A DNA stretch of 64,000 bases from Escherichia phage AidaStucki_Bas93. This document shows positions 29,968-60,336 of the stretch, one piece after another (positions within the stretch are counted from its first letter, which is position 1; every line of letters begins with the position of its first letter). The position numbers and the translations under genes were made by a program. The notes below the pieces were generated by a model. The model had not been told where the DNA came from. It did not search any database and saw only the letters and a list, made by a program, of their open reading frames with translations. The stretch lies in sequence record PQ850593.1, one strand, 5' to 3'.

Positions 29968-30403
29968 GATTTCCTCCATGGTGTCGGATAAGGTGACAAT
30001 TAGCACAGAGCATGACACATTTATCTAACTCTGCCTTAAGTTTAGGCCAGTACCGATAGTATGAAGGGTTTTCGTCTTTTGTTTGTTCATCCAGATGATG
30101 GAACTGCATAACACAAGGTGGGTATTCTTTTTTACAATCTAAGCAAACACCTCCCATGTATTCTATTGCTTTTATCTTAAGATCTCTATTTGCCTTATTA
30201 GCAACCTCTTGCCGTCTTTTTCTATTGGCAGCATACCAAGCTCTTTTCTTTTCTGCGGTACAAATCCTACAAGTTCCAGTAACACCCTTAGTACACATCT
30301 TATTGGGGTGATATTCTGTTATGGCTTTTTCAACCCCACAAACGTTACACACCTTAGTATCAGCATCCACTATAGCTACTTCAGGGAGCTTAACGTCTTC
30401 CAT
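29960..30403 (-). CDS. HNH endonuclease, free-standing
   Basis: Cys-rich zinc-binding N-terminus and QFHHLD ... NCHLIRHH motif; stop overlaps the FEN start codon. Confidence 0.7.
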   Translation of the reverse strand: MEDVKLPEVAIVDADTKVCNVCGVEKAITEYHPNKMCTKGVTGTCRICTAEKKRAWYAANRKRRQEVANKANRDLKIKAIEYMGGVCLDCKKEYPPCVMQFHHLDEQTKDENPSYYRYWPKLKAELDKCVMLCANCHLIRHHGGNHE

Positions 30404-59162: not shown

Positions 59163-59444
59163 TCACCACTCCTTACCGGTTGTAGTTGTAGAGCCACCAC
59201 ACCACTGTGCATTAGATAAGGTTTTAGTCTCCTCATCCATTGCTGCACCATTCATGCATGAGATACCATTGTAACGCATATCAATTTCGCCAGAAGGAAC
59301 CTTCTCACCTTTATGCCAGCGAGATACACAAATACCTTCCACTGCTACTGCACACCATCCATCAGGACGGCTCTGTACACAGCCTGTAAGGGCCACACAG
59401 ACAAGGAAGATACAGATTAAGGATATTACACCACCCCAACTCAT
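59163..59444 (-). CDS. putative lipoprotein
   Basis: signal peptide with lipobox ALTGC; GGAGGT RBS 7 nt upstream of ATG; start moved from the track's 59501, which runs through the upstream inverted repeat. Confidence 0.5.
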   Translation of the reverse strand: MSWGGVISLICIFLVCVALTGCVQSRPDGWCAVAVEGICVSRWHKGEKVPSGEIDMRYNGISCMNGAAMDEETKTLSNAQWCGGSTTTTGKEW

Positions 59445-59456
59445 AACACACCTCCA

Positions 59457-59558
59457 AGAGCTTCTAGCGAGGATGACAGGGTTCGAACCTGCATACTCCA
59501 ATTACTTCTTTAACGACCGCTTAGAAGGCGGGGAAGATACATCCTCGCTAGAAGCTCT
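59457..59558 (-). ncRNA. structured element: 19-bp perfect inverted repeat enclosing a 64-nt loop with tRNA-like T-arm (not a canonical tRNA)
   Basis: AGAGCTTCTAGCGAGGATG (59457-59475) pairs with 59540-59558; loop contains GCAGG-TTCGAAC-CCTGT and CCGC-CTTCTAA-GCGG hairpins; no D-arm could be folded. Confidence 0.35.
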
Positions 59559-60064
59559 TATTTATTATTGAAACCCTTGCTCCAGTAATACTTACCATTG
59601 CAAGACCTACTACAAAAATGATTTTGGTTTTCTTTGTGGACCTTGTTACTCCTTCTCTCAAAAGATGTGCCACAATTACTGCAAACCAAAGTTATGACCA
59701 CACCCTTAGGTCTGTTCTCTAAGGTCTTCTTTAAGTGATCATTTGTGCTTAGAATCTGAAGGTTAGATATCTCATCATTGGTTGGATTTTGATCAACATG
59801 ATCTACCTCTTCCTCTGTAGTGAGATATCTTCCTATGTGGCAGGACATTAAGTACCTAGCATAAGAAACAGTAGACCTGTCTTTATCAGAGTTGTAAAGA
59901 TCTACAACCCTTCTCCCCTCTCGATTTTGACGAAGATATCCCCACCTCCAGTCATTGCAGTAGGGATAATCTAATTGTATTTTCAAATTACCTCCTGCTC
60001 TATCCATTGAGCTAAGAGCGCTTAATTTATTTAGATCATATCTCGCTTGGTGATAGGACCACAC
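59558..60064 (-). CDS. HNH homing endonuclease with C-terminal zinc finger
   Basis: HVDQNPTNDEISNLQILSTNDH HNH motif plus CSNCG ... CSRSC; stop abuts the inverted-repeat element. Confidence 0.7.
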   Translation of the reverse strand: MWSYHQARYDLNKLSALSSMDRAGGNLKIQLDYPYCNDWRWGYLRQNREGRRVVDLYNSDKDRSTVSYARYLMSCHIGRYLTTEEEVDHVDQNPTNDEISNLQILSTNDHLKKTLENRPKGVVITLVCSNCGTSFERRSNKVHKENQNHFCSRSCNGKYYWSKGFNNK

Positions 60065-60084: not shown

Positions 60085-60336
60085 TTAAGCACATGCAGGG
60101 AGTGTGATGATTTCAGGTTTACCTTCGAACTCTTCAAACAAACCCAAGAATGTAGGGCTATACGTACCAGTACAAACAAACTCATCAAAGAGTTCATTGT
60201 ATGAGGGCTTAATCTTCCAAGCCCACACATAGCCCATCTTATCAATTGCAATGTAACGAGTGTTTAGAGGAACAGTCATCATCACACCATCAACTTCGAC
60301 CACTTTAGTGATTGGTGCAGCTTGGAAGTTTTTCAT
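60085..60336 (-). CDS. hypothetical protein
   Basis: 83-aa ORF. Confidence 0.4.
   Translation of the reverse strand: MKNFQAAPITKVVEVDGVMMTVPLNTRYIAIDKMGYVWAWKIKPSYNELFDEFVCTGTYSPTFLGLFEEFEGKPEIITLPACA

What the first reader, a model, noticed from the sequence alone, without database searches (positions are those of the whole stretch)
59457..59558. 102-nt structured element: 19-bp perfect inverted repeat with tRNA-like inner hairpins, flanked by an HNH gene
A perfect 19-bp inverted repeat (59457-59475 and 59540-59558) encloses 64 nt that contain a T-arm-like hairpin (GCAGG-TTCGAAC-CCTGT, minus sense) and a 7-nt-loop hairpin CCGC-CTTCTAA-GCGG resembling an anticodon loop. I could not fold a canonical cloverleaf because no D-arm is present. 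The element lies exactly between the stop of an HNH homing endonuclease and the RBS of a lipoprotein gene. Candidates are a tRNA-like or degenerate tRNA remnant, an RNase III processing site (a 19-bp duplex is a good substrate), or a homing/recombination target.
Basis: seen in the sequence. Interest (0 to 1): 0.55.

Follow-up and report, generated by a model that had tools for sequence, protein, structure and literature searches.

The report
Rewired arginine tRNA carried by phages
The hairpin is one copy of a conserved RNA, found only in phages and absent from Rfam and the papers searched, that looks like an arginine tRNA (anticodon UCU) with two inner segments swapped, so it has no D-arm and tRNA finders miss it; here it sits beside a homing-endonuclease gene that has split the phage's ordinary arginine tRNA gene.

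Summary
A perfect 20-bp inverted repeat (59456-59475 / 59540-59559) encloses a tRNA-like core on the minus strand.

The core is not a degenerate remnant. It belongs to a conserved family that lies mostly within or next to tRNA gene clusters of many unrelated phages. These include phi92-like, rV5-like, FelixO1-like, T5-like, T4-like, jumbo, Vibrio and Streptomyces phages. The family was absent from 5,426 E. coli genomes and almost absent from 185,579 species genomes.

Covariation supports four helices: acceptor, anticodon stem, T stem, and a 3-4-bp "helix X" that encloses the anticodon arm. A D-loop-like strand, UAAUUGGAGUAU, runs straight into the T stem. When the two inner segments are swapped back in silico, ARAGORN detection rises from 0/35 to 35/35 canonical tRNA-Arg(UCU).

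Every member has an Arg anticodon: UCU, or CCU once. Carrier phages almost never have a canonical tRNA-Arg(UCU).

In this kuravirus window, an HNH gene plus this element sits in the position of a canonical tRNA-Arg(UCU). Its first 27 nt survive at 59995-60021.

The 13-bp extension of the acceptor stem marks a subclass that lacks an encoded CCA. It is probably a processing stem.

I infer that the element is a working AGA decoder. That has not been shown.

The parts
59456..59559 (-). Whole element: tRNA-like core plus a leader/trailer stem. It forms a 20-bp perfect helix made of 13 bp of extension and the 7-bp acceptor stem.
59547..59559 (-). 5' leader arm of the extension (AAGAGCUUCUAGC). It starts inside the HNH stop codon.
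   Evidence: The extension is a subclass feature.
59540..59546 (-). Acceptor stem, 5' strand (GAGGAUG).
   Evidence: All 7 pairs covary across the family.
59537..59539 (-). U8-A9-U10 connector, invariant in the 35 aligned sequences.
59533..59536 (-). Helix X, 5' strand (CUUC). Proposed counterpart of D-stem positions 22-25.
59516..59532 (-). Anticodon arm CCCGC-CUUCUAA-GCGGU. The anticodon UCU is at 59525-59523.
59509..59515 (-). Conserved bulge CGUUAAA between the anticodon stem and the 3' strand of helix X. Proposed counterpart of the variable loop.
   Evidence: A divergent member has AGU here instead.
59505..59508 (-). Helix X, 3' strand (GAAG). Proposed counterpart of D-stem positions 10-13.
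59493..59504 (-). D-loop-like strand UAAUUGGAGUAU. Proposed counterparts: A14, A15, G18 G19, A20, A21, U48. It runs directly into the T stem.
   Evidence: Compare the canonical kuravirus tRNA-Arg D-loops AAUGGAUA and AGUGGAUA.
59476..59492 (-). T arm GCAGG-UUCGAAC-CCUGU.
59468..59475 (-). Acceptor stem, 3' strand (CAUCCUC, 59475-59469) and discriminator G (59468).
59456..59467 (-). 3' trailer arm of the extension (CUAGAAGCUCUU). No CCA is encoded. It ends 1 nt before the RBS of the next gene.
59558..59986 (-). HNH endonuclease gene, 142 aa from TTG 59986 behind an AGGAGG RBS. An in-frame ATG at 60007 is an alternative start.
   Evidence: Pfam HNH_3 at 22 bits, below the 24.8 cut-off. 67% identical to the annotated HNH endonuclease of phage YF01 and 87% to the FH3 homologue.
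59995..60021 (-). First 27 nt (acceptor 5' strand, D-arm, start of the anticodon stem) of a canonical tRNA-Arg(UCU) gene, cut off by the HNH cassette.
   Evidence: Identical to positions 1-27 of the intact tRNA-Arg of phage LAMP at the same locus.
59163..59443 (-). Downstream lipoprotein gene (lipobox LTGC). RBS GGAGG at 59455-59451.
   Evidence: LAMP gp106, 'putative lipoprotein'.

Best explanation
The element is a gene for a non-cloverleaf tRNA-Arg(UCU). It belongs to a conserved family found only in phages. In this family the segment that normally forms the 5' D-stem strand plus D-loop (positions 10-21) has changed places with the segment that holds the 3' D-stem strand, anticodon arm and variable loop (positions 22-47).

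The result is an acceptor stem, then UAU, then a 3-4-bp helix X that encloses the anticodon arm and a CGUUAA bulge. After that comes a D-loop-like strand (UAAUUGGAGUAU) that runs straight into a normal T arm.

Shown here: the conservation, the four helices with covariation, the restriction to Arg anticodons, the phage-only distribution, and the near absence of a canonical tRNA-Arg(UCU) in carrier phages.

Inferred: the RNA still folds into an L-shape, because the usual tertiary partners are present (U8, A14/A15-like, G18 G19-like, A20-like, U48-like, T-loop). It would then be charged by ArgRS and read AGA, a codon this phage uses at 9.2 per 1000.

In this window the gene arrived, or was kept, as cargo next to an HNH homing endonuclease gene that split the resident canonical tRNA-Arg(UCU) gene. 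It therefore replaces the tRNA that the endonuclease cassette destroyed.

The outer 13 bp pair the 5' leader with the 3' trailer. This is a subclass trait tied to the lack of an encoded CCA. It most likely serves as a processing stem that frees the tRNA from the polycistronic HNH-lipoprotein transcript (RNase III or similar, then RNase P, 3' trimming and CCA addition). These steps are inferred.
For: 1. Family. blastn finds the inner 65-74 nt at about 80% identity in 145 phage records from very different groups. Most are unannotated; some are labelled 'tRNA-OTHER' or 'Undet', and one is mislabelled tRNA-Val. Two pattern scans of IMG/VR gave 38 and 41 loci.
2. Structure. In 35 distinct sequences, 94.7% of cells pair against 63% in shuffles, and 19 of 21 pairs show double changes. 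Helix X alone is 100% paired against 71.5% in shuffles (0/500), and 12-40% when slid. By eye there are seven different complementary versions of helix X.
3. Segment swap. ARAGORN/35 native sequences and 35/35 after the swap is reversed in silico. At a 115% threshold it still, comparable to real kuravirus tRNA-Arg genes (3/3). Off-register, shuffled or helix-broken controls give 0-1 of 35.
4. Arg identity. The anticodon is UCU in all pattern-derived members, even when the pattern left the loop free, and CCU in a Vibrio phage. The discriminator is G or A in all but two distinct flank contexts. NCCA is encoded in 29 of 46 distinct flank contexts.
5. Complementary distribution. phi92 has 15 tRNAs and no Arg. 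Sugarland has 25 tRNAs and only Arg-ACG. Contigs with 22-24 tRNAs have only Arg-ACG. Streptomyces-type contigs carry Arg GCG, UCG and CCU but not UCU. The exceptions are L028, and L015 where the family copy is truncated.
6. This locus. LAMP has an intact canonical tRNA-Arg(UCU) at the same place. The window keeps its first 27 nt, followed by the HNH gene and then the element. Relatives YF01 and O18-011 carry a 67%-identical HNH followed by a canonical replacement tRNA-Arg(UCU).
7. Codon need. AGA is 9.2 per 1000 codons and 17% of Arg codons. ARAGORN finds no tRNA in the window, and this element is the only Rfam tRNA match.
8. Feasibility. The E. coli ribosome, EF-Tu and HisRS accept a tRNA that lacks the D-arm (PMC11551756).
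Against: There is no expression, processing, aminoacylation or decoding data for any member. The L-shape and the ArgRS recognition are inferred from sequence motifs only. The invariant motifs show no covariation that could test the tertiary contacts, and part of that invariance was imposed by the search patterns. RNAalifold does not predict helix X on energy grounds. The window copy has no encoded CCA, and its acceptor stem is buried in a 20-bp helix, an unusual substrate for RNase P. One phage contig (L028) has both a canonical tRNA-Arg(UCU) and a full family member, so the two are not strictly exclusive. Most loci cover only part of a genome, so a canonical copy elsewhere cannot be excluded for them.
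Confidence: 0.6

Rival explanations
1. The family is a real, conserved tRNA mimic that is not used for decoding. It could be a decoy or sponge for a host factor that recognises the tRNA-Arg(UCU) anticodon loop or the acceptor/T domain, such as an anticodon nuclease or another tRNA-targeting defence. It could also be a regulatory RNA.
For: The body is non-canonical while the anticodon loop is kept exactly like that of a normal tRNA-Arg(UCU). Phage tRNAs are known to counter tRNA-targeting defences (PMC10264068 and PMC13096335, listed). One contig, L028, has both a canonical tRNA-Arg(UCU) and the element.
Against: A decoy would not need to exclude a canonical tRNA-Arg(UCU), yet carriers nearly always lack one. 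The encoded CCA, the G/A discriminator, and a wobble change that stays within Arg (UCU to CCU) fit a charged decoder better. In this window it stands exactly where the canonical tRNA-Arg was destroyed.
Confidence: 0.2
2. The main function in this window is at the mRNA level. The 20-bp stem would be an RNase III or mRNA-stability hairpin between the HNH and lipoprotein cistrons, and the tRNA-like interior would be incidental.
For: A long perfect duplex lies exactly between a stop codon and an RBS. No promoter or terminator was predicted next to it, so it is probably inside one transcript. Leader/trailer pairing recurs in 10 distinct members.
Against: About three quarters of the family have no extension at all yet keep the core. 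The core, not the extension, is what is conserved across phage groups. In Bas94 the 5' arm is largely lost while the core is 97% identical.
Confidence: 0.07
3. The inverted repeat acts at the DNA level, as a recognition, cleavage or recombination site for the neighbouring HNH endonuclease, or as a cruciform that marks the cassette end.
For: HNH_3-type genes lie directly next to family members in at least eight separate contexts. The repeat is perfect in the window, which cannot distinguish DNA from RNA pairing.
Against: In relatives the extension contains G.U pairs on the tRNA-sense strand. These would be A/C mismatches on the other strand and would not pair in DNA (FH3; LPML1, L030 and HC-25922). 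The arm sequences differ completely between phages while the pairing is kept. An endonuclease gene normally sits in a genome that lacks its own target.
Confidence: 0.05
4. It is a decaying tRNA pseudogene left by recombination.
For: There is no D-arm and no encoded CCA, the Rfam score is marginal (29.7 against 29), and the locus is littered with real tRNA fragments.
Against: The same 82-nt architecture recurs with compensatory changes in unrelated phages. The window copy has every family-invariant residue and scores 98 bits, although it was in the training set. Genuine decayed copies look different: L015 and L064 are truncated and score 41-48 bits.
Confidence: 0.03

Closest known systems
Canonical bacterial and phage tRNA-Arg(UCU) (Rfam RF00005), for example the tRNA-Arg of kuraviruses LAMP, YF01 and Bas92
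   Same: 7-bp acceptor stem; anticodon arm with loop CUUCUAA; T arm with UUCGAAY; G/A discriminator; often an encoded CCA; D-loop-like sequence AAU(U)GGA(G)UA; position in tRNA clusters, or at the single kuravirus tRNA locus.
   Different: There is no D hairpin. The D-stem strands come in reverse order, so the anticodon arm lies inside the helix and the D-loop-like strand joins the T stem. ARAGORN misses it, and the Rfam tRNA model gives 30-39 bits against 44-70 for neighbouring tRNAs.
D-arm-lacking mitochondrial tRNAs, for example metazoan mt-tRNA-Ser(AGY) and Ascaris mt-tRNA-Ser(UCU) (PMC7609411)
   Same: There is no D hairpin. It is a three-way junction of acceptor stem, anticodon arm and T arm. 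By coincidence both read AGN codons.
   Different: The mitochondrial forms replace the D-arm with a short connector, often shorten the T arm, and have lost the D-loop/T-loop contacts. This family keeps a full T arm, a GG-containing D-loop-like strand and an extra helix X. It occurs in phages of bacteria, and there is no sign of common descent.
Free-standing homing endonuclease cassettes in phage tRNA regions, for example T4 SegB (PMC2330249) and HEGs at exchange boundaries (PMC10448857)
   Same: A small endonuclease gene is inserted in or next to a tRNA gene. It is present or absent among near-identical genomes. Flanking DNA is replaced, and fragments of the previous allele are left behind.
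   Different: Here the cassette repeatedly carries a replacement tRNA of the same specificity (canonical in YF01 and Bas92, rewired in this window). The endonuclease is HNH_3-like, not GIY-YIG. Activity and target are untested.
RNase III processing stems (rRNA leader/trailer helices, T7 intercistronic sites; from my own knowledge)
   Same: 5' and 3' flanks pair to form about 20 bp of duplex around a stable RNA inside a longer transcript.
   Different: No cleavage data exist. The stem is continuous with a tRNA acceptor stem, and it occurs only in the CCA-less subclass.
Circularly permuted tRNA genes of Cyanidioschyzon merolae (PMC3978253)
   Same: The order of tRNA segments in the gene differs from the canonical order.
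   Different: Those genes are permuted as a whole and are processed through a circular intermediate into a normal tRNA. Here only two internal segments are exchanged, and no simple cut-and-join event would restore the normal chain, so the mature RNA should keep the new topology.

Membership tests
Canonical tRNA (Rfam RF00005 / ARAGORN cloverleaf) | 7-bp acceptor stem closing the molecule | tested here: met
   GAGGAUG / CAUCCUC. All 7 pairs covary in the family.
Canonical tRNA (Rfam RF00005 / ARAGORN cloverleaf) | D-arm hairpin between position 9 and the anticodon stem | tested here: not met
   Only 4 nt occupy the place of about 15 in the cmscan alignment. ARAGORN finds no tRNA in the window and/35 family sequences.
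Canonical tRNA (Rfam RF00005 / ARAGORN cloverleaf) | Anticodon arm with a 7-nt loop, U33 and a purine at position 37 | tested here: met
   CCCGC-CUUCUAA-GCGGU; the first pair is C/U, as in 6 of 35 members.
Canonical tRNA (Rfam RF00005 / ARAGORN cloverleaf) | T arm with a 5-bp stem and a UUCRANY loop | tested here: met
   GCAGG-UUCGAAC-CCUGU.
Canonical tRNA (Rfam RF00005 / ARAGORN cloverleaf) | Score at or above Rfam's gathering threshold | tested here: inconclusive
   29.7 bits against a threshold of 29. Other members score 30-39 bits or fall below the threshold, while neighbouring canonical tRNAs score 44-70.
Canonical tRNA (Rfam RF00005 / ARAGORN cloverleaf) | Aminoacylation and decoding | not testable with these tools
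   Supported only indirectly, by complementary distribution with canonical tRNA-Arg(UCU) and by the restriction to Arg anticodons.
Phage segment-swapped tRNA-Arg family (defined here, model R1) | Helix X (C-N-N(-N) / (N-)N-N-G) enclosing the anticodon arm | tested here: met
   CUUC / GAAG, 4 bp in the window. The family is 100% paired at three positions.
Phage segment-swapped tRNA-Arg family (defined here, model R1) | UAU connector, CGUUAA bulge, and the GUAAUUGGAGUAU strand leading into the T stem | tested here: met
   All are present in the window copy. It scores 98 bits on R1, but it was part of the training set. Members outside the training set score 87-103 bits.
Phage segment-swapped tRNA-Arg family (defined here, model R1) | Arg anticodon (UCU, rarely CCU) | tested here: met
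   UCU at 59525-59523.
Phage segment-swapped tRNA-Arg family (defined here, model R1) | Becomes a canonical cloverleaf when the two inner segments are exchanged | tested here: met
   The window sequence (s0) and all 35 are called tRNA-Arg(tct) by ARAGORN after the swap. Controls fail at a raised threshold.
Free-standing HNH homing endonuclease cassette | HNH catalytic motif | tested here: inconclusive
   Pfam HNH_3 at 22.0 bits against a cut-off of 24.8. A DH...N...N...H pattern is visible in the sequence. It is homologous to annotated HNH endonucleases of YF01 and O18-011 (67% identity).
Free-standing HNH homing endonuclease cassette | Present or absent among close relatives, with the target gene interrupted | tested here: met
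   LAMP and Bas94 lack the gene. The window, FH3, YF01 and O18-011 have it inside a truncated tRNA-Arg.
Free-standing HNH homing endonuclease cassette | Site-specific cleavage of the empty allele and homing in co-infection | not testable with these tools
   No tool available here can test DNA cleavage or homing.
RNase III processing site | About two turns of uninterrupted dsRNA | tested here: met
   20 perfect base pairs. The T stem may stack on them, but that is an inference.
RNase III processing site | Cleavage by RNase III in vivo or in vitro | not testable with these tools
   No tool available here can test RNA cleavage.
D-arm-less mitochondrial-type tRNA | D-arm replaced by a short unstructured connector, with loss of the D-loop/T-loop elbow contacts | tested here: not met
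   The family has an extra covarying helix X and an invariant GG-containing D-loop-like strand.

The most novel reading that the evidence does not exclude
Phages of both Gram-negative and Gram-positive bacteria carry a natural, functional tRNA-Arg whose core is topologically permuted: D-stem strands reversed, anticodon arm nested inside the D-stem, and D-loop fused to the T stem. It would still form an L-shape, be charged by ArgRS and work on bacterial ribosomes. It would spread between unrelated phages as the immune replacement allele of HNH homing endonucleases that destroy ordinary tRNA-Arg(UCU) genes. [quoted passage not shown]
Probability: 0.5. Interest if true: 0.9.

Novelty: new variant of a known kind. 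Interest (0 to 1): 0.8.

Why it matters
If the RNA is a working decoder, the cloverleaf chain order is not required for function on bacterial ribosomes, and nature has already produced a permuted solution. That would be useful for tRNA structural biology and for designing orthogonal tRNAs.

It also has practical consequences. Standard annotation misses or mislabels this gene: it is unannotated in most records, sometimes labelled 'tRNA-OTHER' or 'Undet', and once labelled 'tRNA-Val'. Phage tRNA inventories and codon-usage arguments for AGA are therefore systematically incomplete.

Finally, the kuravirus locus gives a clear natural series. It runs from an intact tRNA, to an HNH gene with a canonical replacement, to an HNH gene with the rewired replacement, to the rewired tRNA alone. 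This series makes it possible to test whether homing endonucleases drive turnover of essential RNA genes by carrying immune alleles.

Tried and rejected
1. ARAGORN on the window and on native family sequences found nothing.
2. Rfam at permissive thresholds gave only the marginal tRNA hit plus chance matches (sau-19, L17DE, UPD-PKd), all far below their thresholds.
3. The single-sequence MFE fold breaks the anticodon hairpin and proposes other inner pairs. I rejected it because the family covariation supports the anticodon stem and helix X instead.
4. RNAalifold recovers only the three classical helices, not helix X. Helix X rests on pair counts and their controls.
5. I looked for a stem inside the 20-nt "variable" region that would make a type-II long variable arm. 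There are only weak A-U options, and nothing is conserved.
6. I looked for the scaffold with non-Arg anticodons by leaving the loop free in the pattern. All loci gave UCU, and CCU appeared once through BLAST and the covariance model.
7. A scan of bacterial genomes gave 4 hits, all on MAG contigs. The E. coli complete genomes gave none, so a host or prophage origin is rejected.
8. My first re-permutation control (an off-register swap) was still called by ARAGORN in 25/35 sequences at the default threshold. I therefore added a threshold series and more controls.
9. Eight literature searches found no description of this RNA. The library lacks most subscription journals, so an earlier description cannot be excluded.
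10. Promoter and terminator scans near the element gave nothing adjacent.
Full report
**1. The observation**

The window carries a perfect 20-bp inverted repeat, 59456-59475 and 59540-59559, with 64 nt between the arms. By direct calculation, a repeat of this kind is expected about 6e-6 times by chance in 64 kb. The minus-strand RNA folds far better than shuffled copies, with z = -6.2.

All neighbouring genes are on the minus strand. In that sense the sequence reads:

AAGAGCUUCUAGC-GAGGAUG-UAU-CUUC-CCCGC-CUUCUAA-GCGGU-CGUUAAA-GAAG-UAAUUGGAGUAU-GCAGG-UUCGAAC-CCUGU-CAUCCUC-G-CUAGAAGCUCUU

Rfam's tRNA model matches 59468-59546(-) at 29.7 bits, against a threshold of 29. The match has a full acceptor stem, an anticodon arm (loop CUUCUAA, anticodon UCU) and a T arm. 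Only 4 nt stand where the D-arm should be, and there is a 20-nt insert before the T arm. ARAGORN reports no tRNA anywhere in the window.

The element begins inside the TAA stop of an HNH-like ORF and ends 1 nt before the GGAGG of a lipoprotein gene. The description is therefore accurate.

**2. The genomic setting**

The window is a kuravirus-like (phiEco32-like) coliphage. Relatives have a single tRNA gene, tRNA-Arg(UCU), exactly here, just upstream of the lipoprotein gene.

In the window, the first 27 nt of that LAMP-type tRNA (GCGCUCUUAGCUCAAUGGAUAGAGCAG) survive at 59995-60021. They are followed at once by an RBS and the HNH ORF (59986-59558), and then by the element.

The locus is highly variable among close relatives:

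- **LAMP:** intact canonical tRNA.
- **YF01 and O18-011:** the same 5' fragment, a 67%-identical HNH gene, and a different canonical tRNA-Arg(UCU). YF01 also has a further 3' tRNA remnant.
- **Bas92 and Ptacy1479:** an unrelated annotated HNH gene on the other strand, with another canonical tRNA-Arg. Bas92 also keeps the 3' remnant of the LAMP-type tRNA.
- **FH3, 1-6af and 1-6bf:** the same element as the window at 99% identity; FH3 also carries the same HNH gene.
- **Bas94:** the element without the HNH gene.
- **HC-25922:** a related element followed by the 3' remnant of the YF01-type tRNA.

This is the signature of repeated invasion by homing-endonuclease cassettes, each bringing its own tRNA-Arg(UCU) allele.

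**3. The element belongs to a large, conserved family**

A sensitive blastn with the element hit 145 phage records. Outside the kuraviruses, the match covers the inner tRNA-like part at about 80% identity. The hits come from:

- phi92-like phages
- Vequintavirinae (rV5-like, KB57, SSBI34, A73)
- FelixO1-like phages (LPML1)
- T5-like phages (Sugarland, Roth39)
- jumbo Asteriusvirus
- a T4-like Pectobacterium phage
- Vibrio phages
- Streptomyces phages

Most copies lie within or next to tRNA gene clusters. Most are unannotated. A few are labelled 'tRNA-OTHER' or 'Undet', and one is mislabelled tRNA-Val(aac).

Two pattern scans of IMG/VR added 47 loci. A scan of one genome for each of 185,579 bacterial and archaeal species gave only four hits, all on MAG contigs. 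The 5,426 complete E. coli genomes gave none. The family is therefore essentially phage-only.

Rfam has no dedicated model for it, and eight literature searches found no description. [quoted passage not shown]

**4. Secondary structure**

Thirty-five distinct sequences align without internal gaps, apart from one U. The structure I tested has an acceptor stem (7 bp), helix X (cols 11-14 with 39-42), an anticodon stem (5 bp) and a T stem (5 bp).

- Overall, 94.7% of cells pair, against 63% in shuffles.
- 19 of 21 pairs show changes on both sides.
- Slid controls pair at 34-47%.

Helix X taken alone (three pairs) is paired in 105 of 105 cells, against 71.5% in shuffles (0/500) and 12-40% when slid. 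By eye it occurs in seven complementary versions:

- CUC/GAG
- CGC/GCG
- CAC/GUG
- CAG(C)/(G)CUG
- CAU(C)/(G)AUG
- CGG/CCG
- CUU(C)/(G)AAG, the window's version

Two caveats apply. RNAalifold finds the three classical helices but not helix X, which is too short to count energetically. Several "invariant" columns were also fixed by the search patterns. However, members recovered independently by BLAST and the covariance model keep these motifs with at most one substitution.

A covariance model (R1) separates members cleanly from canonical tRNAs. Members score 87-103 bits (the window scores 98 but was in the training set). Canonical tRNAs score 32 bits or less.

**5. It reads as a tRNA-Arg with two inner segments exchanged**

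The strand after helix X, U-AAUUGGAGUA-U, resembles the D-loop of canonical kuravirus tRNA-Arg genes (AAUGGAUA, AGUGGAUA). It includes counterparts of A14, A15, G18 G19, A20 and A21, followed by a U in the place of U48 just before the T stem. From my own knowledge, A20 is the main ArgRS determinant in E. coli.

The 5' strand of helix X runs straight into the anticodon stem, as D-stem positions 22-25 do. The 3' strand runs into the D-loop-like sequence, as positions 10-13 do. The chain order is therefore 8-9-[22-47]-[10-21]-48, instead of 8-9-[10-21]-[22-47]-48.

I tested this by moving alignment columns 40-53 in front of columns 10-39 in silico:

| Sequence set | ARAGORN calls, default | At 110% threshold | At 115% threshold |
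|---|---|---|---|
| Native family sequences | 0/35 | 0/35 | 0/35 |
| Re-permuted, in register | 35/35 | 29/35 | 25/35 |
| Off-register swaps (two versions) | 25/35, 31/35 | 0/35 | 0/35 |
| Moved segment shuffled | 30/35 | 7/35 | 1/35 |
| Helix X broken | 34/35 | 4/35 | 0/35 |
| Moved segment deleted | 0/35 | 0/35 | 0/35 |
| Real kuravirus tRNA-Arg genes | 3/3 | 3/3 | 3/3 |

All re-permuted sequences were called canonical tRNA-Arg(tct). A tandem duplication of the inner region followed by loss of the outer copies would produce such a swap; this is an inference. That the RNA still forms an L-shape is also an inference.

**6. Evidence that it serves as the phage's tRNA-Arg(UCU)**

- **Anticodon.** All pattern-derived members have the anticodon UCU even when the loop was left unconstrained (loops CUUCUAA, CUUCUAC, UUUCUAA). 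A Vibrio phage member has CUCCUAA, that is CCU, also Arg.
- **3' end.** The discriminator is G or A in all but two of the distinct flank contexts, and NCCA is encoded in 29 of 46.
- **Distribution.** Carriers nearly always lack a canonical tRNA-Arg(UCU), even with large tRNA sets:
  - phi92 has 15 tRNAs and no Arg.
  - Sugarland has 25 tRNAs and only Arg-ACG.
  - L018, L025, L029 and L039 have 22-24 tRNAs and only Arg-ACG.
  - L035 and L047 have Arg GCG and UCG (L035 also CCU), but not UCU.
  - The exceptions are L028, which has both, and L015, where the family copy is truncated and a canonical gene is present.
- **This locus.** In the window the element stands where the canonical gene was destroyed.
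- **Codon need.** The phage uses AGA at 9.2 per 1000 codons, 17% of its Arg codons. From my own knowledge, AGA is a rare codon in E. coli.
- **Feasibility.** E. coli EF-Tu and ribosomes accept an engineered tRNA that lacks the D-arm (PMC11551756).

None of this shows expression or charging.

**7. The outer stem**

The flanks fall into two classes. Ten distinct members have 13-19 leader/trailer pairs continuing the acceptor stem:

- the window
- FH3
- SSBI34
- A73
- LPML1
- L030
- HC-25922
- L012
- L018
- L028

All ten lack CCA; their tails are GCUA (eight times), GCAA and ACAA. None of the 29 NCCA members has more than 2 such pairs.

The arm sequences differ between phages while the pairing is kept. 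The arms contain G.U pairs on the tRNA-sense strand: FH3 has one A-to-G change that gives U.G, and LPML1, L030 and HC-25922 have several. This points to an RNA-level role.

The most likely role is a processing stem that releases the tRNA from a longer transcript. In this scheme RNase III or a similar enzyme cuts first, followed by RNase P, 3' trimming and CCA addition by the host enzyme. From my own knowledge, CCA-less T4 tRNAs are matured in this way. No promoter or terminator was predicted next to the element, so it is probably co-transcribed with the HNH and lipoprotein genes. These steps are inferred.

**8. Link with HNH endonucleases**

HNH_3-type ORFs on the same strand lie directly downstream of family members in six contexts:

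- SSBI34
- L030 (FelixO1-like)
- L038 (jumbo)
- L016
- L067
- Sugarland

They lie directly upstream in the window and in FH3.

In L064, a family copy truncated in the T arm is followed by a different HNH-type ORF on the other strand and then by a complete, divergent family copy. The rewired gene can therefore itself be invaded.

KB57 (a myovirus) and Sugarland (T5-like), both Klebsiella phages, share an identical core and differ only in the acceptor stem. This fits exchange between unrelated phages.

My reading is that tRNA-Arg(UCU) genes are recurrent homing targets, that the cassettes carry replacement alleles, and that the rewired allele lacks the contiguous D-arm/anticodon-stem sequence where the kuravirus HNH cassette is inserted. 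Immunity of the rewired gene to cleavage is speculation.

**9. Verdict**

It is a full member of a conserved, phage-specific family of tRNA-Arg-like genes with a permuted core. The family is absent from Rfam and from the papers searched. The window copy carries the leader/trailer stem subclass trait and sits in a homing-endonuclease hot spot.

The fold and the family are well supported. The decoding function, the L-shape and the processing pathway are inferred.

Noticed in passing
window 59995-60021 (-): A 27-nt 5' fragment of a canonical tRNA-Arg(UCU) gene, identical to phage LAMP, sits directly upstream of the HNH ORF. The ORF lister reads through it from an upstream GTG, so the listed 168-aa ORF is probably too long.
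   Followed up: yes
window about 29981-30187 (-): A second HNH-like coding stretch elsewhere in the window. tblastn with the Bas92 annotated HNH gives 51% identity over 71 aa.
   Followed up: no
L064 1458-2182: A family copy truncated in the T arm, then a 168-aa HNH-type ORF on the opposite strand (1570-2076), then a complete divergent copy (2103-2182) with AGU in place of the CGUUAA bulge. This looks like a homing event into the rewired tRNA gene itself.
   Followed up: partly
L015 6108-6183 (-) and 5435-5512 (-): A family copy cut off after GUAAUU (41 bits) lies in the same contig as a canonical tRNA-Arg(UCU). This is one of the two cases where the two coexist.
   Followed up: partly
L060 (phage HC-25922) 2494-2625: The family member, with a UAACUGG variant of the D-loop-like strand, is followed by the 3' remnant (T arm, acceptor strand, CCA) of the YF01-type canonical tRNA-Arg. 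No HNH gene is present.
   Followed up: partly
L005 (phage YF01) 1690-1740 (-): A further orphan tRNA 3' end (GGTTCGATTCCAGATAGTCCACCA) lies between the replacement tRNA-Arg and the lipoprotein gene. This is a third layer of tRNA debris at this locus.
   Followed up: no
L010 (Streptomyces phage Yaboi) 1495-1573: The family member is annotated in GenBank as tRNA-Val(aac). The anticodon was apparently read from the conserved CGUUAAC bulge.
   Followed up: partly
L007 2133-2208; L008 1065-1139 and 2741-2810: ARAGORN reports 'tRNA-???' with two-base anticodons (tt, ga, gt) in the phi92 and KB57 tRNA clusters. The phi92 one is annotated tRNA-Lys. These may be tRNAs with unusual anticodon loops.
   Followed up: no
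L008 versus L023/L063: KB57 (Vequintavirinae) and Sugarland (T5-like), both Klebsiella phages, have family members that are identical from position 8 to 71 and differ only in the acceptor stem. This suggests recent exchange or very strong constraint.
   Followed up: no
window 60385-60360 (-) and 58747-58728 (-): Terminator-like hairpins bracket the block that holds the gene at 60085-60336, the tRNA fragment, the HNH gene, the element, the lipoprotein gene and the small genes downstream.
   Followed up: no
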